Positions 1,061 to 62,073 of a stretch of DNA of 64,000 nucleotides are shown one piece after another. The stretch is taken from the IMG/VR virus record IMGVR_UViG_3300044970_002808, positions 1-64,000 of that record; one strand, given 5' to 3'. The notes under the pieces were generated by a model. It saw only the letters and a list, made by a program, of their open reading frames with translations. It searched no databases and was not told where the DNA came from. Each line of letters starts with the position of its first letter. The stretch's first letter is position 1. The stretch is from an uncultured virus (IMG/VR IMGVR_UViG_3300044970_002808). Lineage: Duplodnaviria; Heunggongvirae; Uroviricota; Caudoviricetes. The position numbers and the translations under genes are program-made.

Positions 1061-1256
1061 TGCTATTGACGGGAATTGAACCCGCAAAATAGTCCTAAAT
1101 CTTCTGGCGAAACGCCCTTCCCTCACCCATAGCTTTTACAGATTTGGTGGATTCGCAAATTCCAGTTGAACCACTAACTAAAGGTTAGTTAATGTGGGTA
1201 TTCCTTTTCGGTTGGAGGTTTCCGTTTCAAACCTCTGGCTACCAAGCCACAATAGC
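1061..1256 (-). ncRNA. tRNA-like structured RNA (acceptor stem and T-arm enclosing a large structured insert)
   Basis: GCTATTG/CAATAGC-A acceptor stem; GCGGG-TTCAATT-CCCGT T-arm; several internal hairpins; promoter positioned to start at about G1. Confidence 0.7.
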
Positions 1257-1262
1257 ATTCTT

Positions 1263-1292
1263 ATTATATCTTGGGCTAATAGGTTTTGTCAA
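1263..1292 (-). promoter_or_regulatory. sigma70-type promoter of the tRNA-like RNA
   Basis: TTGACA-N18-TATAAT. Confidence 0.8.
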
Positions 1293-1295
1293 GTG

Positions 1296-1780
1296 GGTAG
1301 GGGGGTAGGTCGGTTTTTTCTTGGTTGACCCTTGCTTTCCCCCGCACTGCCCCAGTCGAGATAGGGTGTAATACAAATGTACTAGACATAAAGTTTCACC
1401 AGCAATTAGGGGGGTAGGTAGGGGGGGGTTCTTGGTTTTTTCTTGGGCTACCCCCTCACTTCCCCCATTAAACCAAGTTCAAACAGGGTATGAGTATTTA
1501 TACCTATTTCTAAAGGCATAGCTCTAAGAAAACCTATCAACTGGGGGGGTTATCCCAGTTTTTCTATGTCTGACCCTGTCCCTCCGGTTTGACCCTGCCG
1601 TAGATGGTTTCCATTATGGGAATCCCCGCAACGCCCGTGCTGGAATGGTTTGGCGATGTTGATGTCCTTTAAACCAATTTAAACCAATTAACCCAAAATG
1701 TACCAAATTATACATTTATTATTTCTTGGCAGGTCAAATGTTTGTTCTAGAGTTTAATTTGACCTCAGAACTCTTGCACC
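1296..1780 (+). repeat. non-coding module, diverged copy of about 60565-60935
   Basis: shared blocks GGTATGAGTATTTATACCTATTTCTAAAG, CCCGTGCTGGAATGGTTTG and AGGTCAAATGTTTGT..AATTTGACCTCAG. Confidence 0.85.
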
Positions 1781-1859
1781 AAACTTGACTGGGGATTTTC
1801 TCCCGTTATAAAAAATGTTAACTTTCATTAACATTAATTTCCTGTTTCACAGGGGGGTA

Positions 1860-2030
1860 AGACGGCTTAACCCCACTCCACAAGCTAACACGAGCTAACT
1901 GCCCGTTTTACCCTAGTTAAAGGGGGTTTAACCTTGATTGATTAAGCTTGGTTCTCACTTAACCAGTTTTTGTTGGGTTAACCCCAGTATAACAGAGAGT
2001 AGATTAAATGTCAAGGGGTTCGAGAAAAAA
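1860..2030 (-). repeat. promoter plus structured-leader repeat, copy 1 of 3
   Basis: near-identical to 15957-16080 (-) and 53215-53373 (+); TTGACA-N18-TATACT. Confidence 0.9.
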
Positions 2031-2117
2031 CTTTTAGACTTCGGGAAAACTTTATTCTAAAAGTCTAAGCACTGAGTTTCAGGTAAGGGGCTAAACATTC
2101 GCTAACAGGGGGAGGGA

Positions 2118-3308: not shown

Positions 3309-3935
3309 CTAATCGTCGCACGCAACCCGAAAACCAAAGTCGTCGTAGTGGATGACGGGGTTGTTCTGGAGGCGGTTAGCAGAACGACAGTAATAAGGGA
3401 AGATGTGCCAAGAACCGCCCCGCAGACAAATATCCTCACACCACTCCCAAACATTACCACTCATGTCATAAAGCCCCCAACCATTGGGCTTTTTCTGTCC
3501 TACAGGATGAGTTTTGTTATTAGAATTTTCGTCATACCAAGCGTACTCCCCTAACTGATTAGCATCATTACCAAAATAATAGTGAGTAGTTGTACCTGCT
3601 CGACAGGCATATTCCCATTCAGCTTCTGTGGGAAGACGATAGGTTTTGCCTGTGATTTCACTTAATTTTAGGCAAAAGGCTTGAGCATCGTCCCAACTAA
3701 CTTGTTCTACTGGATTTTGGGGACTATTTTCAAAGTAAGAGGGATTGGTTCCCATTACTGCTTGATACTGTGCCTGAGTAATGGGATATTTGCCAATGGC
3801 AAAACTGTTTACTTTAACTTGGTGTTTAGGCTTTTTAGAATCACTTTCAGAAGAACCCATGAGAAATTGACCTGCTGGTAAGCTTACCATTTCTAATGTT
3901 ACTCCGTTGGGTAGTTTTTCGGTAAATTGGTTCAT
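3309..3935 (-). CDS. FGE-sulfatase (CLec-fold) protein, copy 1; DGR-target-like
   Basis: FLMGS, RLPTEAEWEYACRAG, NGWGLYDMSGNVWEWC and RGGSW..GFRV motifs; start moved to MNQFTEK by comparison with copy 2. Confidence 0.9.
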   Translation of the reverse strand: MNQFTEKLPNGVTLEMVSLPAGQFLMGSSESDSKKPKHQVKVNSFAIGKYPITQAQYQAVMGTNPSYFENSPQNPVEQVSWDDAQAFCLKLSEITGKTYRLPTEAEWEYACRAGTTTHYYFGNDANQLGEYAWYDENSNNKTHPVGQKKPNGWGLYDMSGNVWEWCEDICLRGGSWHIFPYYCRSANRLQNNPVIHYDDFGFRVACDD

Positions 3936-4165
3936 TTTTTTTTTTGTTAGTCCCAAATAGTTGATAACTGATAACTGATAACTGATTATAGCGTTCGACT
4001 GGTTGTTTATCGTTACCCGTAATCTTGTTTTCCGTGTTTGTTTGCCTGATGCTATCTTATGCGATTCTCCCAGAAATGTCAAGTGTATGAGAGAATCTTT
4101 TTTTGAACAAGTGTACTACTGATAACTGATTAATTGTCGCAGACTAGCAACCAATAATTAATGAA

Positions 4166-5125
4166 TTAAGCTTTGCAATCTTGGAGAAAAGCCCATAAAT
4201 AATCTTTATGTTCGGTAAAATTATTTAGCATTTGATACACTTTTTGAGTATCAAAAACACCTGGATAAACACCGGAATAGGGTTGGTGGAAATATATTTT
4301 ACAGTAGAGACCATCTTCGCTTATTGCTAAACGATGTCCTAACTTTACTAGCATTTTTTCGAGCTTTACAGCAAATTCTTTTACACTAGAGGTAAGAAGG
4401 GGGAAATTAAAGGCGTTGTAAAAGAACATTTGATTGTCGCAGACTACCCGAAAACCGTCGGTGTCGTCGTAGTTGTGGCGGCTGTCGTAGTAACGGTAAG
4501 CGGAACGGCAGTCACACCGAAAGTCGCTCCAAGAACCACCCCGCAGTATTTGATAATCATTATCATTTGTTACCCAGGCACTGCCATTCTTTGGTGCATT
4601 TTCGTAGCTATCGTGCCAATTGTCTTCGCACCACTCCCAAACATTGCCACTCATGTCATATAGTCCCCAACCATTGGGCTTTTTCTGTCCTACAGGATGA
4701 GTTGTATTTTGAGAATTTCCTTCATACCAAGCGTAATTTCCTAACTGATTGGCATCATCACCAAAATAATAGCGAGTAGTTCTATCCGCACGACAAGCAT
4801 ATTCCCATTCAGCTTCTGTGGGTAGGCGATAGGTTTTGCCGGTTATTTGACTCAATTTCTGACAAAAGGCTTGAGCGTCATTCCAACTAATCCTTTCTAC
4901 CGGATTTTGGGGATTATTATAAAAATAAGAGGGATTGGTTCCCATTACCGCTTGATATTGTGCTTGAGTAATGGGATATTTCCCAATAGCAAAACTGTTG
5001 ACTTTAACTTGGTGTGGAGGCTTTTCATCCTCGCTTTCAGCAGAACCCATGAGAAACTCACCTGCTGGTAAGCTTACCATCTCTAGTGTGACTTGATTGG
5101 GTAGTTTTTCGGTAAATTGGTTCAT
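4166..5125 (-). CDS. FGE-sulfatase (CLec-fold) protein, copy 2, with C-terminal extension
   Basis: same motifs; tandem duplicate at 1190-bp offset, including promoter. Confidence 0.9.
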   Translation of the reverse strand: MNQFTEKLPNQVTLEMVSLPAGEFLMGSAESEDEKPPHQVKVNSFAIGKYPITQAQYQAVMGTNPSYFYNNPQNPVERISWNDAQAFCQKLSQITGKTYRLPTEAEWEYACRADRTTRYYFGDDANQLGNYAWYEGNSQNTTHPVGQKKPNGWGLYDMSGNVWEWCEDNWHDSYENAPKNGSAWVTNDNDYQILRGGSWSDFRCDCRSAYRYYDSRHNYDDTDGFRVVCDNQMFFYNAFNFPLLTSSVKEFAVKLEKMLVKLGHRLAISEDGLYCKIYFHQPYSGVYPGVFDTQKVYQMLNNFTEHKDYLWAFLQDCKA

Positions 5126-9686: not shown

Positions 9687-9828
9687 ACTGAATGGAGAAA
9701 TATTATTTTCTAATGAGACTAACGGGGTGTATGTAGTTACCACCCCTGAGACTTTAGTTCAAACAATAACATCCACAAATAATGTCTTCTATGTGACAAC
9801 AGTTTTTGTCGGGTTAAACCCAGTATAA
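9676..9828 (+). CDS. 50-aa hypothetical protein
   Basis: GGAGG RBS, ATG overlapping the previous gene; MAIELNGEILFS... Confidence 0.45.
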   Translation: MAIELNGEILFSNETNGVYVVTTPETLVQTITSTNNVFYVTTVFVGLNPV

Positions 9829-9846
9829 CAGAGAGTAGATTAGATG

Positions 9847-11154
9847 TCACGTTGACATGGTGAAGTTTGGTTCTAGTCCTGAGTCTTCTGTTTCTAGGAC
9901 GGAGAAATTTACCACTTGACCACCGCAGAATTTAGCGAACCCTTCTTTGACTGAGGAAGTGAGATTAGAGAAGTCAGCAGAAACACGGACGTAAGTGGCT
10001 TTTACTTTTTGCTCCATCTTGTTTAGGACTTGTCTCTGGATATTATAAAGATTCTGCCAAGCGGCTTTAAAAATATCCTTATCAGATTTGGGGGGTTTTC
10101 TAAGCTTTAAAGAGTAAGGAGCGTAGTTTAATGGGTCGTCAGAATAAACGAATTGGGAAACCCACTCGTAAAAAAGAACCTCACATTTGCCTTTGTTCCA
10201 AGCATTTATTTGCCTTCTACTGTAGGATTTTCCTACTTGCCATGGGAACATCTTTTCTAAAAGCATAGTAATGGAAAGGGGATTGTTATCAAGGTCTCTC
10301 CCCAATTGATTGCCCCAACAACCCTCGTGTTCAATTGGTATGCCCATACTAGAGTAGGTTTTAACGGCTCCTACGTTATCATAGAAATTAACCCAAGCTC
10401 TAAAGATACCCTTCTTATCAAGTTCAGCCTTAAACGTATGGAGAGCCTCGGCAAGTTCACCACAGGGGCGGTTAAATTTATTTTCGCTGAACTCTAGAAT
10501 GGAGAACATATAGTCAAGATAGGTGTTGGTGTGTTCACGCCAGTGAGCCATAGTCTGGTCAATATAGGCCTTTCTCCCATCTACATCTTCAGGGGGGATG
10601 CAAGAGTAAGCAAAAAAATCCTCATTACGGATTAAATCATCCGCACTACGAACCTCTTTAGGTCTAAGTCTAGGCTCTCCTTTCTCAACACTTCTAACTA
10701 AATCATGAAAAATTTCGTGGGTAAAATCCATTGCAATTTGTAATTGTAATAGGACAGCACTACCCGCCGCAACAGTCTGAGAGCCAGTTAGTTTTACGGC
10801 TTCTGTTTTCTTTTTGAAGGGAGTGTTAACCATAGTGGTTAATACGGAACCCATAGCGGCGTTGTAAGCGGCTTGTAGACCCTTATTGGAAGTAGCCTTA
10901 GTTTTCGGGGGGTTATAAACGGGTAAAAGTTTTTTTAGGAGTTTATAGATGTCCACGAAATGACGGCTGGTATAGCCAGTGGGTGTGACAACTTTCTCTA
11001 CAAAAAGTTTAAATTCTTCGTGAACGGCGATAAAAGTGTCGGTATCCACAATTTCCGCCTCTAAAGCTTCGATAGAGACGTTATTAAAGTCTCTGAAGTC
11101 CATTTCGACTTCTACTGTGGAAGTTTTTAATATTTTGTTGGCTGTTCCTAACAT
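9847..11154 (-). CDS. hypothetical protein in the replication region
   Basis: 435-aa ORF with its own TTGACA/TATACT promoter. Confidence 0.7.
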   Translation of the reverse strand: MLGTANKILKTSTVEVEMDFRDFNNVSIEALEAEIVDTDTFIAVHEEFKLFVEKVVTPTGYTSRHFVDIYKLLKKLLPVYNPPKTKATSNKGLQAAYNAAMGSVLTTMVNTPFKKKTEAVKLTGSQTVAAGSAVLLQLQIAMDFTHEIFHDLVRSVEKGEPRLRPKEVRSADDLIRNEDFFAYSCIPPEDVDGRKAYIDQTMAHWREHTNTYLDYMFSILEFSENKFNRPCGELAEALHTFKAELDKKGIFRAWVNFYDNVGAVKTYSSMGIPIEHEGCWGNQLGRDLDNNPLSITMLLEKMFPWQVGKSYSRRQINAWNKGKCEVLFYEWVSQFVYSDDPLNYAPYSLKLRKPPKSDKDIFKAAWQNLYNIQRQVLNKMEQKVKATYVRVSADFSNLTSSVKEGFAKFCGGQVVNFSVLETEDSGLEPNFTMST

Positions 11155-11260
11155 AGGTGTCTTTGGGGTAGCAATAACTAAAGTATAACAGAGGGTATGG
11201 CAGGTGTCAAGGGGGTTGAGAAAAATTTTTTAGGTTTTAGCCACCCCCGTAGGTCTAAAA

Positions 11261-14533: not shown

Positions 14534-14609
14534 GGGTAAAGTGTTTGTTTTAACGGGTCAACTTTGTGTTGGGCGGTTACTCCCTGTATGACAGAGAGTA
14601 GATTAGATG

Positions 14610-14876
14610 TCAAGGGGTTACTTTAGCCAAAGCCAAGTAAGGGGCTAATGCTTTCAAAGGTAGAGTGACTCTTAAAGCTACCAAAGCATGAAATCGTAAG
14701 TCCTCTTTTTTGATACCCTCAGCAAGTTCTATGGCTTCGGGTATTAGTTCTGGGGGTAAATTAGGGGCTAACGCCACTAACCCTTGGGAACGTTCGGCTT
14801 CCGTGTCGAAACTCTTTACAATTTCTAAAGCTTTCCGCATCAAATTCTCAGACATTTTAGACTCCAGTATTTCCAT
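14610..14876 (-). CDS. short helical-repeat protein
   Basis: LVALAPNLPPELIPEA / ALVAL / ALAPYL repeats. Confidence 0.55.
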   Translation of the reverse strand: MEILESKMSENLMRKALEIVKSFDTEAERSQGLVALAPNLPPELIPEAIELAEGIKKEDLRFHALVALRVTLPLKALAPYLALAKVTP

Positions 14877-15845: not shown

Positions 15846-15956
15846 AAATTTGTTGGGTTTTGTTTAGATTTGGTTTTTGTCGGGTTAACCCCAGTATAAC
15901 AGAAGGTATATTAGGTGTCAAGGGGTTTGAGAAAATTCTTTTTGGGCTTTTCTCTG

Positions 15957-16080
15957 CCGCTTTACCCTAGTTAAAGGGGGTTTTAACCCTGATTGATTAA
16001 GCTTGGTTATCACTTAACCAGTTTTTGCTGGGTTAATAACCCCAGTATAACAGAGAGTAGATTAGATGTCAAGGGGTTTA
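15957..16080 (-). repeat. promoter plus structured-leader repeat, copy 2
   Basis: matches 1905-2020 and 53225-53342. Confidence 0.85.
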
Positions 16081-21176: not shown

Positions 21177-21234
21177 CAGGCAAGAAAAAACCCCCTATAC
21201 TCTAGGGGGTTAAATAAACCAAACAAGGAACAAA

Positions 21235-21306
21235 TCTGGGTTGTGGGAGTCGAACCCACCTATGCCGTCTTATGAGGACGGTGCTTATCCGATAAGCTAA
21301 ACCCAG
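21235..21306 (-). tRNA. tRNA with CAT anticodon (elongator Met or Ile2)
   Basis: CTGGGTT/AACCCAG acceptor, GCTT/AAGC D-stem, CCGTC-CTCATAA-GACGG, GTGGG-TTCGACT-CCCAC; no encoded CCA; promoter at 21332-21361. Confidence 0.93.
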
Positions 21307-21346
21307 AAGGTCTTTTGCTCCAGACCTCTTTATTATAACTTAGCCG

Positions 21347-23209: not shown

Positions 23210-23380
23210 AGGTTTTTAGGTCTTTAAGGTCTGTATGTTCCCAACATAACATACCGCTTATTGGTTTGTCAACATATTTTATCCATAAGAAAAAGCTATC
23301 AATGAAGTATAAGTAAATCTTATCGCTAGGGTAAGCCCCCATCGCCCAATCTAAGACAGAAGCGATTGAGCGTAGAGATA

Positions 23381-25996
23381 ATGGCAAAACCTGGAAAATT
23401 AAAATTATATTTACACCCGGGACAACAAGAAGTATTCGGAGACCCTGCCAGATTCAAGGTTTTGGTTTCATCGAGGAGATTTGGGAAAAATTTAGAAGAA
23501 AACACCCCTATTTTGACCAAAAATGGTTATAAACCGATTAAGAAAATTTTCACTGGGGACACTGTATATAATGAACAGGGTTTACCTGTAAAAGTTTTAG
23601 CGGCTACCGAGGTATTTGAAGATGATTGCTACGATATTGTCTTTGAAAATGGACAGGTTATCAGAGCAGGGAAAAACCATGAGTGGGTTTTGGAGCTAAA
23701 CCGTAAGTTAGAGTCTAACACATGGACTACTGAGGAAATATTCTATTACCATCAAAACATTCAAAAGGGAAGTAAAAAACTTAATTTATCTGTTCCTCGT
23801 AAAATTTTGCATCCGTGGGAAAGCTTTTTTATAGCCGATGTAATCCCTGTTGGAAGACATCGAACTAAGTGTATTCAAGTAGAAGGAGGGATTTTCCTAT
23901 GTAGTAAAAGTAACATCCCTACCCATAATTCCAGGCTACTATTAACTACTTTAATCGAAAGGGCTATTAATTACAACGGCAACTATGATAAAGCTTCACC
24001 CCCCGTCGTTTTGCTCGTTATGCCTAGCTTAAAACAGGCTAAACAAATCCACTGGGAACCACTTGTAAATATTCTAGATGGACACCCAGCAGTTAAAAGA
24101 ATTTTTAAGTCTGAATGCAGAATCGTTTTTAAAGGAAATAAACCAGACATCATCCTCAGAGGAGCCAATGAAGATAATGGCGACAATATGCGGGGGTTGA
24201 AGATATATTTTGCTGGATTAGATGAGATGCAAGATATAAAACCTATTGTATGGACGGAAGTGATTCGCCCTGCTTTAGTTGATACTAAAAATAGTACATC
24301 TCTAATAATTGGCTGTGTTAATCCCAATACAAAGGTACTAACTCTCACTGGAATCAAGGAAATTAAAGATTTCGACTCTGATACAAAAGAGAAAGAGTAT
24401 TTACCCATTTCTGAGGACATCTATGGAATAGGTAGAGAGTTCCACAAAGCAGATGGCTTCTTTAACAATGGTATCGTGGAAACGAGAAAAATTTCAACCA
24501 GCTACGGGTTTACTTTAGAATCCTCCCTGAACCACCCTATCCTGACCAAAGATGGATGGAAGAAAACGGGTGAACTGGAAGTTGGGGATAAGGTAGCCAT
24601 AGACTATGGGATGGAAGTCTGGGGGAACATTGACCCCTTAGCTGATTTTGAAGGGACTGGGACTGAGATAAACGGCTTAAGTATTTCAGGTGGGATGACT
24701 GAGCAGTTAGCCCATTTCTTAGGGTGGGGCATAGCACAAGGGAATTTTGCCAGTGCTTTTCATAATAGCGATGATTTAGGCAAATTCCTGAACCTATTAA
24801 AGCACTTAGGTATGCGAAAGTTTTTCCCCTCTTGGTTGTGGAACGGAAAAAGAGAGTGGGCTGTGTCTTTTATAAAGGGATACATAGTAGGGGCGGGTTT
24901 GAGGAATGACCAAAAAAGAATAGTCCTCAGAAGCCCGTCAAAAGAGCTTTTAAGAGAGATGCAATTACTACTGACTAATTTAGGGGTAGTGGCGTGTCTC
25001 GGAGGGGATGGGCTGGTTTTAAACGGGTTTAACCCCAGTGAACCCTTAAAAAATCAAGACTATTACTGGGATACAGTAAAAACCCTTGAACAATCAGAAT
25101 GTCAGACTTTTGATTTCACCATTCCAGAAACCCATTCTTTCTGGTCTAACGGGTTTATCAGTCATAATACGCCCAAAGGGGCAGGTACATTTTTCCATAG
25201 TCTCTACCTACAAGGTGGTGAAGTTCCTAATTGGGCTAGTTTTTTAAAAACAGTTTATGATAATCCCTTTATTCCCCTTGATGAAATCCAAAGAACCAAA
25301 GAGTCATTACCCGAAAAAATCTTTAGACAAGAATTTTTAGCATCTTGGGAATCTTTTGATGGTCAGATATTCTCAGATTTAGATAAGAGACACTTACTGG
25401 ATGATGACGATTTACCGACAAAATTTGACCAAGTATATATCGGAGTGGACTGGGGAGATGTGAATCCTGCCCTAGTAGTGGTGGGAAGACGGGGAGCCGC
25501 TTATTTTGTGATTGATTGTTGGGAAAATCCCAACCCTAAAGCGGCCATTGAACAACGAGTCCACAATGAGAAAGCCATTGAGTTAGCCAGAACGCATGGT
25601 GTCAACCGTGGATATGCTGACCCGTCACAACCGGGAAGAATTTTAACCATGAGAAAAGCGGGTGTTCCCAAGTTAATGGAGGGCTATAATAGGGTATCAG
25701 AAGGTAATGGGGTGGTTAACACTTTATTACACCAAGATAAACTTTTTATTGCCAAATCCTGTAAAAGGGTTTTTGAGGACATGACTGCATATCACCGAGA
25801 GTCTAAAGAAGGGAATGTTACCGAGAAAGTGGCTGAAGGGCAAAGAGACCATTTTTGCGATGCTTTACGTTACGTTTTGGCTACTTTGGAGCATCGGAAT
25901 ATTGAGAATATCATCGATAGTATGGGTGCAAATACCCTAATACCCAGTGTCCCCCAAGATGATAGTCTCTACGGAAATTATAATTCTGGCTATTAA
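23381..25996 (+). CDS. terL: terminase large subunit containing two inteins
   Basis: SRRFGK/S Walker A, GLDEMQD Walker B, G/TPKG, GVDWG and DHFCDALRY nuclease motifs. Confidence 0.95.
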   Translation: MAKPGKLKLYLHPGQQEVFGDPARFKVLVSSRRFGKNLEENTPILTKNGYKPIKKIFTGDTVYNEQGLPVKVLAATEVFEDDCYDIVFENGQVIRAGKNHEWVLELNRKLESNTWTTEEIFYYHQNIQKGSKKLNLSVPRKILHPWESFFIADVIPVGRHRTKCIQVEGGIFLCSKSNIPTHNSRLLLTTLIERAINYNGNYDKASPPVVLLVMPSLKQAKQIHWEPLVNILDGHPAVKRIFKSECRIVFKGNKPDIILRGANEDNGDNMRGLKIYFAGLDEMQDIKPIVWTEVIRPALVDTKNSTSLIIGCVNPNTKVLTLTGIKEIKDFDSDTKEKEYLPISEDIYGIGREFHKADGFFNNGIVETRKISTSYGFTLESSLNHPILTKDGWKKTGELEVGDKVAIDYGMEVWGNIDPLADFEGTGTEINGLSISGGMTEQLAHFLGWGIAQGNFASAFHNSDDLGKFLNLLKHLGMRKFFPSWLWNGKREWAVSFIKGYIVGAGLRNDQKRIVLRSPSKELLREMQLLLTNLGVVACLGGDGLVLNGFNPSEPLKNQDYYWDTVKTLEQSECQTFDFTIPETHSFWSNGFISHNTPKGAGTFFHSLYLQGGEVPNWASFLKTVYDNPFIPLDEIQRTKESLPEKIFRQEFLASWESFDGQIFSDLDKRHLLDDDDLPTKFDQVYIGVDWGDVNPALVVVGRRGAAYFVIDCWENPNPKAAIEQRVHNEKAIELARTHGVNRGYADPSQPGRILTMRKAGVPKLMEGYNRVSEGNGVVNTLLHQDKLFIAKSCKRVFEDMTAYHRESKEGNVTEKVAEGQRDHFCDALRYVLATLEHRNIENIIDSMGANTLIPSVPQDDSLYGNYNSGY
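23489..23929 (+). other. class 3 mini-intein (147 aa) in the TerL Walker A
   Basis: starts NLEENTP; W in block B (NHEW), C in block F (TKCIQV), ends PTHN|S. Confidence 0.85.
24314..25168 (+). other. class 1 intein (285 aa) with degenerate LAGLIDADG remnant
   Basis: CVNPNT start, SLNHPI, TFDFTI, SHN|T; FLGWGIAQG and FIKGYIVGAG remnants. Confidence 0.9.
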
Positions 25997-53135: not shown

Positions 53136-53214
53136 AGGTTCTGCTTTAGACCCACCTTTGTTGATATTTATTAACATTTACGGTAGTTTTCTACTAAGGT
53201 AAAGTCTAAAGGTT

Positions 53215-53373
53215 TTTTCTCAAACCCCTTGACATCTAATCTACTCTCTGTTATACTGGGTTTAACCCAACAAAAACTGGTTAAGTGAGAACCAAGCTTA
53301 ATCAATTAGGGTTAAACCCCCTTTAACTAGGGTAAAGCGGGCAGTTAGCTCGTGGAGTGGAGTTAAGCCGTCT
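53215..53373 (+). repeat. promoter plus structured-leader repeat, copy 3 (upstream of the sigma gene)
   Basis: matches the reverse complement of 1860-2030. Confidence 0.9.
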
Positions 53374-57655: not shown

Positions 57656-59086
57656 CTATTGGGGTAGCTCAGTTAAGAATTTTATTAGGATTCCTCTGGC
57701 TCCATTTAAATCTCTGTCTAAACTTTCGTTACTCTGAGATTTGATTACTTTCCTCCCACCTAGATTAGCTATTATTTCCCCTGTCCATGATACGGTTTTG
57801 GAGGTATAAGCCTCAGAAACTATTATTAGTTTTTTACCAAATTTATTGGCTTTGAACTTTAATAATTCCTTAAACTCATAATGTCCAAAATTTAACATCG
57901 AACGGGTAGTAGATTTATTGATTTTTCTGCCTTTCTTTTTGACCATTTCACTGGTGTTAAAGCAGGGTAGAAGGATTACATCAAAGTTATCTACTAAAAA
58001 TCTGCTAATTTTGTGGTGGAGTTCTTTCCTCAGATTTCTTACCTTTAATGTGGTTCGTTGTTGCCACATTCTTAGATAATCAATCCGACTTTGGTTTTTG
58101 GTTTTAGCTATTTTAGATTGGATTTTGTCTGCTTTATGACAGAGTTTAGCCAATCTCTTCAGGGCTTCTTCACCAAATTTACCAAAAACTCCATTAGACG
58201 AAAAAATAGTTTGGAAAGTTCTAACACCAGGGTCTAATGCTACAATCTTTAGGTCTTGGTTTTCGACTTCTGGATTATTAGCAATATCTTCAGTATAAAT
58301 TAGGTAGAACAATCCCCCAGTAGTTGTGAGGGTTAGACCATCAAAACTACCCCTTGTGTCTGATTTTAGGGGGGTTTCTAGTTTTAGGTTTCGGGGGGCT
58401 AACACTCCCTTAGCTGAGAGTATTTCCTTTTTTAGGTTGATAGTTTGTCGGGGCTTTTTTCTAGATTTGAATTTTAACTCAAACCTTTCAACTAACCCCG
58501 CTTTTAATTGGGCAAACCCTACTTGTTGGGCATTGATAGCTTCGGTGATAGCCTCCTTTACTGTATTTATGTTTATGCAATTGGTTAACCAAGTGTGTTT
58601 CTCCAACCAAAATTGAAAGAATGTGTCACGGATGTCATAGCTTGACAAACCTTTTCTTTCTTTCTTAGTCTTTAAATCACAATTAGCCCCAATTTTACCG
58701 TTTTTCAGCAAATCTACTGTTTTGTTGTAGATAAACCGATATTGGGAGATTAGCTCATTCAGTAGGTTCTGTTGGGTTCTGTCGGGGTAAAGTCTTATCT
58801 TCCTTGATATTTTTGCTGTATTTCCTAAGCCCGTAGACTCTGCAACTGAAAATATGGAGGATTGATAGTAAGTCTTGGGTAAGTTCTTGTTCGGGACTTG
58901 TTTCAGTGTTGTTGAGAACCACGATTGTTCCACCGTTCTTGAGAACAAGGTATTGGAACAATTCAAATCCAAATCGGCAGAGTCTATCTCTGTGGGAGAT
59001 AACAAGAGTGAACTTATCTCCTGAGAATAATCTGTCCAATAAGGTTTGAAGTCCTTTTCTTTTGAAGTTAAGTCCAGAACCGACAT
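57656..59086 (-). CDS. tnpB: TnpB RNA-guided nuclease with Fanzor-type catalytic arrangement (start uncertain)
   Basis: KIRLYP, ALDPGVRTF, DVILLP, SEAYTSKT and LDRDLNGARGI motifs. Confidence 0.9.
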   Translation of the reverse strand: MSVLDLTSKEKDFKPYWTDYSQEISSLLLSPTEIDSADLDLNCSNTLFSRTVEQSWFSTTLKQVPNKNLPKTYYQSSIFSVAESTGLGNTAKISRKIRLYPDRTQQNLLNELISQYRFIYNKTVDLLKNGKIGANCDLKTKKERKGLSSYDIRDTFFQFWLEKHTWLTNCININTVKEAITEAINAQQVGFAQLKAGLVERFELKFKSRKKPRQTINLKKEILSAKGVLAPRNLKLETPLKSDTRGSFDGLTLTTTGGLFYLIYTEDIANNPEVENQDLKIVALDPGVRTFQTIFSSNGVFGKFGEEALKRLAKLCHKADKIQSKIAKTKNQSRIDYLRMWQQRTTLKVRNLRKELHHKISRFLVDNFDVILLPCFNTSEMVKKKGRKINKSTTRSMLNFGHYEFKELLKFKANKFGKKLIIVSEAYTSKTVSWTGEIIANLGGRKVIKSQSNESLDRDLNGARGILIKFLTELPQ

Positions 59087-59351
59087 CTGTAATGACCTCC
59101 GAATGAGGGTAGACTGATTTCAAGAAACCGACCTGTCTATTTAAATCTTCAGACTGTTTTCTTGAGCTAACCCTAGCATAACAGATAACTGAGGGTTTGT
59201 CAAGAGGGTCGGCTAAATAGGATTCAACATCGTAATATCGTTGACCTGCGGGGTTTTTAATCCCCTTAATCAAACCGTCATCAAAATATTTTCTAAGGGT
59301 ATGGGGGTGAAGCCCTAATTTGGAGGAGGCTATTCTAGAAGGAACGAGCAT
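58755..59351 (-). CDS. tnpA: IS607 transposase (MerR-type HTH plus serine recombinase)
   Basis: LGLHPHTLR, YARVSS, DVGSGLNFKRKGL and RDRLCRFGFE motifs. Confidence 0.95.
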   Translation of the reverse strand: MLVPSRIASSKLGLHPHTLRKYFDDGLIKGIKNPAGQRYYDVESYLADPLDKPSVICYARVSSRKQSEDLNRQVGFLKSVYPHSEVITDVGSGLNFKRKGLQTLLDRLFSGDKFTLVISHRDRLCRFGFELFQYLVLKNGGTIVVLNNTETSPEQELTQDLLSILHIFSCRVYGLRKYSKNIKEDKTLPRQNPTEPTE

Positions 59352-59453
59352 AAACCAGTTATCAGTGTTCATAAACAAATATGAGCGTTTATAAACAAAT
59401 ATGTACTTAGACAATAACGCTCAATCTAAGTCTAAATATTGGTAGGTGTTAAG

Positions 59454-60427: not shown

Positions 60428-61361
60428 ATCACTTTAATTGTACACTAGGGTTTACATTTTCTGCTTTGGGCGTATCTAAACTAACAGGGGTCTGAATCCT
60501 AAAATAACCCCCCTAGTTGTTACTGAAGTCCCGACCCCGTAGAGTTTCTAGGTTAACCCGTCAACTGGGTAGGTAGGGGGTGGATAGGTTTTTTCTACGG
60601 GGGAGACCTAATTCCCCCCGCACTGCCTTCGACTAACCCTTCTGCTCAAGGTATGAGTATTTATACCTATTTCTAAAGACATAGCCCTGTTTTAACCCAT
60701 CAAGTGGGGGGGTTGCTTTGGTTTTTTATGCCTAGGACATCAATTCTTCAGTTAGCCCTATCTACTCCAGTTTCGACTTGGCAAATCCCCCGCAAACCCC
60801 GTGCTGGAATGGTTTGACGATGTTGGTGTCCCTTAAGCCCCAGTTTGTCCCAAAATGTATCCATTTATACATTTCCTAAAAATGGGTAGGTCAAATGTTT
60901 GTCCTAGAGTATAATTTGACCTCAGGACTCTTCCCCTATTATAACTTGGGCGTGAATATTTTGCAACCCTTAAAACACTGAACTTTTGACAGATTTTTAA
61001 ACTTGGTCTAACCATCATCAACAACGGCAATTAAGTCCTAATAGGGGAAGTCAGGGGGCAACCTGGAAAACCTTGTCCTGTCTGGGTTTCACCTGGGTCT
61101 AAGGGGGCAAGTGGGGGGGGGGTTCGGAGAGAATTTCAGATTCAAGTAACCCCCCTACTTGTTAGACCCGTAGTACACTTGTACCAGACTGGGTTGAACA
61201 TGGCCAGACTGGGTTTCATCTGAGTCTAAAGGGGAAACTAGGGGGGTGAAAAATGCCTCGAACCCCCCCAGTTGTGGATTTATATAGTACAAATGTATTA
61301 AACTGGGGTTGAACCAGGCTAAAACAGGTCAGACCAGGGGCGGAGTTATAACTGTCCGTTA

Positions 61362-61935
61362 TAAAAACCAACCTAACCCCCCCTACCCCCCTAGTATAGA
61401 ATAGTTGGGGCTGGTTGGCTAAGACTGGTCTGGCAGAGTCAAACCCCGTACTATGTCTTTAGAAATAGGTATAAATACCCATACCCAAGGTAAAAGGGGG
61501 TCTAGGGGTCAAACCCAGTTAAGCCCTGTTAAACTTGGGAGGGATGAAATAAGGGGGGTCGCCCAGAAAAACCAACCTAACCCCCCTACCCCCCTAGTAA
61601 GGAATGGCTGGGGCTGGTTGGCTTAGGCTGGGGCTGGCAGGGTCAAACCAGATTCAACCCAATCCGACCAAGTGGAATCAAGGAGGTCTCCATAAAAAAA
61701 CCCAAGAACCCCCCCACTTCCACCCTTAGCTAACTGGGTCAGGTTGGGTTGAAGGGGTTAAACGGGGTCTGGTCGGGTCAAACCCCGTACTATGTCTTTA
61801 GGGATAGGTATAAATACTCATACCCAAGGTAAAAGGGGGTCTAGGGGTCAAACCCAGTTAAGCCCTGTCAAACTTGGGGGGGATGGAATAGGAAGGGTCG
61901 CCCTGAAAAAAGAGAACCCCCCCCTACCCCCCCAG
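61362..61935 (+). repeat. nested direct repeats in a non-coding region
   Basis: about 83 bp at 61362/61567 and about 135 bp at 61438/61777. Confidence 0.9.
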
Positions 61936-62073
61936 TTCATCTTTGTCTAGTACATTTGAACCACCCCCCAGCTTAACCGGGGCAGACTGGGGGTTGACAA
62001 TAAAAAACCCCTTCCAAAGGGGTCAGGATGGGTCAGGTAGGGTTGAGGATGGGTCAGACCCCGTTAGACCCAA

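What the first reader, a model, noticed from the sequence alone, without database searches (positions are those of the whole stretch)
1061..1256. 196-nt RNA with a tRNA frame enclosing a possibly pseudoknotted core
Seen on the minus strand: GCTATTG..CAATAGC-A acceptor stem; D-like hairpin TGGCT-TGGT-AGCCA; hairpin GAGGTTT-N7-AAACCTC; canonical T-arm GCGGG-TTCAATT-CCCGT. About 125 nt replace the variable loop. They contain CATTAACTAA/TTAGTTAGTG, TGGA/TCCA and GGCG/CGCC hairpins, plus crossing helices TACCCA/TGGGTG and CCAAATCT/AGATTT(A)GG. A TTGACA-N18-TATAAT promoter places the start at about G1. There is no G3-U70 pair, and it is short for a tmRNA or a group I intron-containing tRNA. Inference: a tRNA-mimic or tRNA-scaffolded ncRNA class I do not recognise, perhaps an anticodon-nuclease decoy, ribosome ligand or ribozyme.
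Basis: partly seen in the sequence, partly recalled or inferred. Interest (0 to 1): 0.88.

Follow-up and report, generated by a model that had tools for sequence, protein, structure and literature searches.

The report
Phage tRNA-shaped RNA with hidden message
Viruses of the bloom-forming cyanobacterium Microcystis carry an unannotated 196-base RNA gene shaped like a transfer RNA whose extra middle part appears to hold a short start-less protein code, so it may act on ribosomes like a miniature tmRNA; this is inferred from sequence and untested.

Summary
Real, unannotated RNA gene (1061-1256, minus strand, 12/12 promoter). No Rfam family or ARAGORN call. Homologues occur only in Microcystis-type phages, as two sequence types about 74% alike (35 distinct sequences). 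The tRNA frame co-varies. Two features were missed. (1) The 'anticodon' loop GAAACG pairs with an internal CGUUUC strand (one compensatory variant). (2) A start-less frame at 1136-1156 reads ANPPNL-stop (ANPPNLAKIE-stop in Ma-LMM01 types). All five substitutions in its six shared codons are synonymous; it is the only such window of 118 tested (0.055 expected by chance). It begins Ala-Asn with A at -4, like the E. coli tmRNA tag. Best reading (0.45): a tRNA-mRNA hybrid that works like tmRNA but is not one (no G3-U70, keeps D-stem and anticodon arm, no degron-like end). Main rival (0.33): non-coding tRNA decoy. Against: only two types, a helix could explain part of the synonymy, one lineage has a broken acceptor stem, and there are no expression data. 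This scan reported the RNA three times before on other DNA; the short notes I saw mention neither feature.

The parts
1263..1292 (-). sigma-70-type promoter (-35 at 1287-1292, -10 at 1263-1268); predicted start at G1 = 1256
   Evidence: 12/12 match; TTGACA plus a -10-like hexamer ending 6 nt before base 1 in 46 of 46 loci counted among L001-L050. Start site inferred, not measured.
1061..1256 (-). the whole 196-nt RNA, to the discriminator A; CCA not encoded
1250..1256 (-). acceptor stem, 5' strand (third pair U-A, not G-U)
   Evidence: two pairs change on both sides; 7/7 in 30 of 33
1236..1249 (-). D arm: 5-bp stem, 4-nt UGGU loop carrying the GG of a tRNA elbow
   Evidence: one compensatory pair, 100% paired in 22 sequences
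1215..1235 (-). anticodon-position arm; loop U-GAA-A-C plus 3-4 extra bases (GAAACG at 1223-1228)
   Evidence: two compensatory pairs; loop length varies 7-9 nt, core AAACG constant
1199..1204 (-). 5' strand of the helix closing the insert (P2-like), pairs with 1086-1091
   Evidence: 6/6 in 33 of 33, two compensatory pairs; weak in the window type (-2.5 kcal/mol as a duplex)
1195..1200 (-). 5' strand of crossing helix, pairs with 1124-1129
   Evidence: -7.4 kcal/mol duplex; different 7-bp counterpart in LMM01 type
1172..1194 (-). A/U-rich hairpin upstream of the reading frame
   Evidence: three compensatory pairs; tolerates indels
1162..1165 (-). 5' strand of 4-bp helix Pa, pairs with 1104-1107; closes the loop that holds the frame
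   Evidence: 4/4 in 32 of 33, three pair combinations, two independent double changes
1157..1161 (-). invariant AAUUU directly before the frame (A at -4; last triplet UUU)
   Evidence: no variable column in 33 sequences; UUU in 35 of 35
1136..1156 (-). start-less reading frame, A-N-P-P-N-L-stop (ANPPNLAKIE-stop in LMM01 type)
   Evidence: synonymous-only variation; no conserved start codon
1124..1129 (-). 3' strand of crossing helix
1109..1114 (-). CGUUUC strand complementary to the anticodon-position loop (6-bp long-range pairing)
   Evidence: 6/6 in 33 of 35 incl. compensatory variant L516; 5/6 in 2
1104..1107 (-). 3' strand of helix Pa
1096..1102 (-). near-invariant AGAUUUA linker, partner unknown
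   Evidence: two single-sequence changes in 33; unexplained
1086..1091 (-). 3' strand of the P2-like helix
1069..1085 (-). canonical T arm
   Evidence: 15 of 17 bases as in E. coli ssrA (read by eye), but nine tRNA isotype classes also reach 14/17 or more
1061..1068 (-). acceptor stem 3' strand and discriminator A
   Evidence: replaced by unrelated bases in 5 of 46 loci

Best explanation
A phage tRNA-mRNA hybrid that works like a miniature tmRNA. Shown from sequence: promoter, co-varying tRNA frame, closed inner domain, anticodon loop complementary to an inner strand, start-less frame with synonymous-only change. Inferred: the host polymerase starts at G1; host enzymes trim the 3' end and add CCA; a synthetase other than AlaRS charges it (Phe if the GAA loop is read, Leu if not); EF-Tu brings it to a stalled ribosome; its own anticodon arm, already paired with the inner strand, stands in for SmpB or for a codon-anticodon helix; after peptidyl transfer and translocation the ribosome resumes at GCG (possibly with GAA re-paired to the UUU just before it), adds ANPPNL(AKIE) and stops. 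The likeliest benefit is freeing ribosomes during infection with a tag that is not a degradation signal; the Pro-Pro could instead slow or hold ribosomes.
For: Of 118 gap-free six-codon windows with 4 or more substitutions (59 sense, 59 antisense, 33 distinct sequences) exactly 1 has no amino-acid change, and it starts at GCG; 0.026 + 0.029 such windows expected by chance. In the last nine bases all four possible synonymous transitions occur and none of the other five (1/126). Stop is UGA in 29, UAA in 4 LMM01 types; the window type stops at the next codon. Indels flank the frame but do not enter it. No conserved start codon: in-frame AUG absent from 8 of 31 LMM01 types and both window types. 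tmRNA tags have a resume codon and no start codon (PMC8012679, passages), and A at -4 sets their frame (PMC2481249, passages); ours has A at -4 and begins Ala-Asn like E. coli ANDENYALAA. Anticodon-loop pairing has a compensatory variant. The CrPV IRES is a precedent for an RNA that mimics an anticodon bound to a codon and starts at Ala (PMC5723415, passages).
Against: Only two sequence types; five substitutions carry the test, and the random model ignores structure. A helix between codons 4-6 and the strand before the T arm (4/4 in 33 of 33) could account for three of the four clustered changes. I noticed the frame by eye before testing it. No G3-U70. The upstream run differs from tmRNA at -5 (A, the harmful U85A) and -3 (pyrimidine, disfavoured). 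The tag ends in L or E, and differs in length between types. 5 of 46 loci have a broken acceptor stem, and a complete 88-kb genome has only that copy. 2 of 3 sequences with A in the loop keep the mismatched C. GAA:UUU pairing alone is unstable (+1.3 kcal/mol). My isotype comparison did not single out Phe. No transcript, charging or peptide data.
Confidence: 0.45

Rival explanations
1. Non-coding tRNA mimic: a stable decoy or inhibitor that binds a host tRNA-handling protein (anticodon nuclease, synthetase, RelA, RNase P, SmpB) or plugs the ribosome, with the anticodon masked so it cannot decode. The frame is a by-product of structural constraint.
For: Elbow features (D-loop GG, canonical T loop) are invariant while the acceptor can be lost. 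A helix can explain part of the synonymy. T4 rnaC/rnaD and T5 RNA1/RNA2 are annotated stable RNAs of unknown function. A TLD-only phage tmRNA is proposed to inhibit tmRNA (PMC4131195, passages).
Against: Does not explain the GCG-to-GCU change, the C/U change at the first Leu base, UGA/UAA exchange, or why the one synonymous-only window starts at Ala-Asn with A at -4. A masked anticodon is a poor bait for an anticodon nuclease (inference).
Confidence: 0.33
2. tRNA-framed mRNA for an ordinary small protein started at AUG/GUG, the frame only giving stability.
For: In-frame AUG 14 codons upstream in 23 of 31 LMM01 types; GUG 6 codons upstream in the window type.
Against: No start codon is shared; Ma-LMM01 itself has none in frame, and four more isolate loci have the same two-base-shorter form. 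The upstream codons change amino acids freely.
Confidence: 0.07
3. tRNA with a self-splicing (group I-like) intron, or a ribozyme on a tRNA scaffold.
For: Crossing helices can be drawn in the order of group I P3/P7, and AGAUUUA is near-invariant. Phage tRNAs with unexplained introns exist (PMC6784885, passages).
Against: No Rfam intron or ribozyme hit to E 10. Removing the insert leaves a 9-11-nt anticodon loop, not a working tRNA (sequence). Helix Pa has no group I counterpart (recalled architecture).
Confidence: 0.07

Closest known systems
tmRNA (SsrA, Rfam RF00023), incl. 79 phage sequences and CDS-less forms (PMC11915505, passages)
   Same: tRNA ends joined to an inner domain closed by a helix next to the T arm; start-less frame beginning Ala-Asn and ending in a stop; A at -4; T arm 15/17 like E. 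coli ssrA
   Different: 196 nt against about 360; no G3-U70; has a D stem and an anticodon-position arm, which tmRNA lacks (PMC8012679); tag has Pro-Pro and no Ala-Ala end; Rfam matches only 15 T-arm bases, 13.3 bits against a cut-off of 47
Dicistrovirus intergenic IRES (CrPV)
   Same: RNA-internal anticodon:codon mimic, start-less translation from Ala (PMC5723415, passages)
   Different: cis element of a eukaryotic virus mRNA with no acceptor end; here the paired strand is not directly followed by the frame; analogy only, no sequence test
Phage T4 species 1/2 RNAs (rnaC, rnaD) and T5 RNA1/RNA2
   Same: phage small RNAs annotated as stable or tRNA-like, function unknown; in Ma-LMM01 the gene lies 100 nt from a tRNA-Tyr gene
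   Different: my model scores them no higher than ordinary tRNAs (best 16.6 bits over those loci; none in the T4 genome); own promoter rather than a tRNA cluster
Intron-bearing phage tRNAs of Lak megaphages (PMC6784885, passages)
   Same: oversized tRNA frame with conserved insert
   Different: no insert-free version found in any scan; removal would not give a normal anticodon loop

Membership tests
tmRNA | G3-U70 alanine identity pair | tested here: not met
   U3-A70 in all intact acceptors
tmRNA | tRNA-like domain without anticodon arm (place taken by SmpB) | tested here: not met
   co-varying D stem and anticodon-position arm
tmRNA | start-less tag frame with resume codon and stop | tested here: inconclusive
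   present by sequence pattern, 1 of 118 windows, 0.055 expected; translation not shown
tmRNA | frame-setting upstream run (U at -5, A at -4, purine at -3) | tested here: inconclusive
   A at -4 met; -5 and -3 not met
tmRNA | hydrophobic degron end such as Ala-Ala | tested here: not met
   ends -NL (2 of 35) or -KIE (33 of 35)
tmRNA | Rfam/ARAGORN recognition | tested here: not met
tmRNA | SmpB binding, charging, trans-translation activity | not testable with these tools
   no SmpB gene in 5 phage records searched; the host's SmpB would be present
tRNA | 7-nt free anticodon loop and short or class II variable arm | tested here: not met
   loop expanded by 3-4 nt and complementary to an inner strand; 129-nt insert
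tRNA | acceptor stem, discriminator, D-loop GG, T arm | tested here: met
   (acceptor broken in 2 of 33 distinct sequences)
group I intron-containing tRNA | recognisable intron core and exons that rejoin to a normal tRNA | tested here: not met
   no Rfam hit to E 10; no 3' anticodon-stem exon before the T arm (sequence)
T4 rnaC/rnaD, T5 RNA1/RNA2 families | sequence/structure homology | tested here: not met
   covariance model at tRNA-noise level
candidate viral RNAs of PMC10690425 | identity with a listed candidate (e.g. DNAVirus_4872/4873, 98/97 nt, opposite strands, Microcystis host) | tested here: inconclusive
   motifs absent from the readable files; alignment files could not be read; listing

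The most novel reading that the evidence does not exclude
An SmpB-independent, non-alanine trans-translation RNA: a charged tRNA carrying its own message in the variable arm, whose anticodon loop pairs with its own internal strand to enter the ribosome and set the frame, adding a non-degron Pro-Pro tag. It would be a second, all-RNA route to ribosome template switching, used by phages.
Probability: 0.25. Interest if true: 0.97.

Novelty: new variant of a known kind. Interest (0 to 1): 0.8.

Why it matters
tmRNA with SmpB is the only known RNA that makes a bacterial ribosome switch template (established knowledge; PMC8012679). A 196-nt phage RNA doing something similar with its own anticodon arm would show how a tRNA can become a tmRNA (an open origin question, PMC5041485, passages), give a testable role to one of the unexplained tRNA-shaped phage RNAs, and reveal a new way for phages to manage host ribosomes. 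It is present, unannotated, in cultured phages (Ma-LMM01, MaMV-DC), so it can be tested directly. Even as a decoy it is an undescribed structured RNA shared by unrelated phages of one host.

Tried and rejected
Exact patterns miss distant relatives. No RNA holder was listed, so no reads were laid; this is no evidence on expression. The Ma-LMM01 transcriptome paper PMC5780444 has none of six search terms (term search only). Origin from tRNA-Phe: a resemblance to cyanobacterial tRNA-Phe is recalled only; comparison with 203 tRNAs from fetched loci (no host tRNAs among them as far as known) did not favour Phe. ARAGORN at a relaxed score calls the region tRNA-Phe with an intron, among 173 calls, so it was given no weight. 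RNase P-like and group I-like readings were considered from recalled motifs and dropped. Helix GAAUUU/AGAUUU was dropped as sterically incompatible with Pa (inference). Ten literature searches listed no description of this RNA; the library lacks most subscription papers, and unread supplements of PMC10690425 and the tmRNA database of PMC11915505 (not checked) could hold it.

Full report
Observation. A 12/12 sigma-70 promoter lies at 1263-1292 (13 promoter-like sites in 3.5 kb against 6.0 in shuffles, two of them 12/12). The next gene (nucleoside 2-deoxyribosyltransferase, 442-987) has its own 12/12 promoter starting 24 bases after the RNA; no terminator-like site was found there. ARAGORN and Rfam find only tRNA-Met at 21234-21307 in the window. 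At E up to 10 Rfam matches 15 T-arm bases to tmRNA (13.3 bits, cut-off 47) and one opposite-strand chance hit. The fold has z = -2.37.

Context. The window is a 72.9-kb virus record, 72% complete, whose major capsid protein is 82% identical to that of Microcystis phage Mic1; the host is inferred from that. blastn finds the RNA at 74% in 9 records, all Ma-LMM01/MaMV phages, unannotated, 100 bases from tRNA-Tyr in Ma-LMM01; flanks are unrelated. Mic1 and a complete 96.8-kb relative lack it and also lack the neighbouring gene. So it is an accessory gene shared by unrelated phages of one host. A complete scan gave 53 family loci among 75 (48 LMM01 type, 5 window type). No third type and no true cellular copy was found (see Tried and rejected). 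In all, 35 distinct full-length sequences; most statistics use the 33 in hand.

Structure. Acceptor, D stem, anticodon-position arm, the hairpin at 1172-1194, a P2-like helix (1199-1204 with 1086-1091) and helix Pa (1162-1165 with 1104-1107) all show changes on both sides: 12 of 41 pairs, against 1.0 in shuffles and 0-2 in slid controls (22 of the sequences; that alignment misplaces the window's loop gap by two columns, so the loop pairing was recounted). Most changes are the single split between types; Pa has a second, independent one (L006). The crossing helix UACCCA/UGGGUG is real in both types with different letters; in the LMM01 type it competes with the longer P2-like helix (-5.1 against -6.2 kcal/mol), so the interior may switch. 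The loop GAAACG is complementary to CGUUUC at 1109-1114: 32 of 35 have G-C, 1 has A-U (L516), 2 have the A-C mismatch. The U variant occurs only in an A-loop sequence, which chance would give about 3 times in 35. All 46 loci counted keep TTGACA and a -10-like hexamer 6 bases before a purine at base 1, so the 5' end is probably the primary start. CCA is not encoded.

The frame. After invariant AAUUU the window reads A-N-P-P-N-L-stop; the LMM01 type reads ANPPNLAKIE-stop. Codon variants: Ala GCG/GCU, Pro CCG/CCA, Asn AAC/AAU, Leu UUG/UUA/CUG, stop UGA/UAA; no amino-acid change in the six shared codons in 35 of 35. The codon two before GCG varies E/K, and indels lie just upstream and just after the window's stop. 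Of 118 windows tested one is synonymous-only and it starts at GCG; 0.055 expected over both strands; single-window probability 0.001. No start codon is conserved. tmRNA tags likewise lack a start codon (PMC8012679, passages); E. coli's begins GCA AAC after an A at -4, the main frame determinant (PMC2481249, passages). That most tmRNA tags begin Ala-Asn is recalled, not from a call. Limits: the frame was spotted by eye first; five substitutions carry the result; a helix of codons 4-6 with the strand before the T arm could explain three of them; G/A variation at the LMM01 stop position also occurs in the window type, where it is not a stop.

Mechanism. Most likely (0.45) the RNA is read by ribosomes as a tRNA-mRNA hybrid. 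Steps shown are sequence patterns only; transcription, CCA addition, charging, ribosome entry and tagging are inferred. In tmRNA SmpB fills the missing anticodon arm and binds the five bases before the resume codon. Here an RNA arm sits in that place, is tied by the 6-bp pairing to the strand next to Pa, and exactly five bases separate Pa from GCG. The last three are UUU, which GAA or AAA could read in the P site, though that pairing is unstable alone. The CrPV IRES is a precedent for such mimicry (PMC5723415, passages). Whether host SmpB is needed is open; none of 5 phage records encodes one. The charged amino acid is unknown. The tag lacks an Ala-Ala end and holds Pro-Pro, a known slow motif (recalled), so rescue without degradation and ribosome trapping are both possible.

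Against. A lineage with a broken acceptor (5 of 46 loci; sole copy in a complete 88-kb genome) keeps the core intact, which fits a role without charging, or recent decay. The upstream run misses the tmRNA pattern at -5 and -3. No expression data could be obtained. The non-coding decoy reading stands at 0.33.

Comparison. It fails tmRNA membership on G3-U70, on having an anticodon arm and D stem, on the tag end and on model recognition. Described phage tmRNAs are standard or TLD-only forms (PMC4131195; PMC11915505; passages). T4 rnaC/rnaD and T5 RNA1/RNA2 are analogues in shape only. Ten literature searches listed no description; unread supplements of PMC10690425 list two Microcystis-phage candidates of 98 and 97 nt that I could not compare. 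Three earlier notes of this scan describe the same RNA in other phages; I saw only their short summaries, which call the function unknown. Another note rejected a tag-like frame in a different phage RNA, a reminder that such frames can mislead.

Verdict. Real, undescribed RNA family; new variant of a known kind by function if the frame is read; interest 0.8; SmpB-free template switching 0.25, worth 0.97 if true.

Noticed in passing
L005:119-156 (also L009, L017, L041): Second, truncated copy: damaged promoter plus the first ~35 bases of the RNA, then a terminator-like hairpin, about 1.25 kb upstream of the full gene.
   Followed up: partly
L008:1370-1567, L030, L050, L032, L010: Lineage whose 3' acceptor strand is replaced by unrelated bases while the core is intact; only copy in the four records checked.
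   Followed up: partly
window 1803-2041: Dispersed repeat with partial copies at 53202-53373, 15957-16078, 15873-15942, 9800-9849, 14563-14619, 11182-11233, and many in two related genomes; overlaps a promoter-like site.
   Followed up: no
window 1300-1576: Three 32-base repeats spaced 122 and 123 bases, upstream of the RNA's promoter, with partial matches at 60647-61993.
   Followed up: no
window 3309-5125: Two tandem FGE-sulfatase-domain genes, a domain often diversified by retroelements (recalled); not examined.
   Followed up: no
window 23366-25996: Terminase large subunit with an intein carrying a LAGLIDADG-like domain.
   Followed up: no
window 57656-59414: Resolvase plus TnpB-like pair (IS607-type element) beside the capsid gene.
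   Followed up: no
L195:483-703 (+): Another tRNA-framed RNA with a ~150-base insert in an unrelated phage contig; 15.6 bits only with my model.
   Followed up: partly
L231:570-707 (-), L229:490-587 (-), L217: Further tRNA-ended RNAs with inserts (about 140 and 100 bases; L217 looks tmRNA-like), not members of this family.
   Followed up: no
L160 and L137: L160: a tRNA-like unit nested inside another tRNA's anticodon loop; L137: long structured RNA ending in a T arm.
   Followed up: no
L171, L172, L173: LMM01-type phage DNA inside Crocinitomicaceae and Acidimicrobium metagenome bins in GTDB, probably mis-binned.
   Followed up: no
L689:614-695: tRNA gene next to the RNA in MaMV-DC, not annotated in that record.
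   Followed up: no
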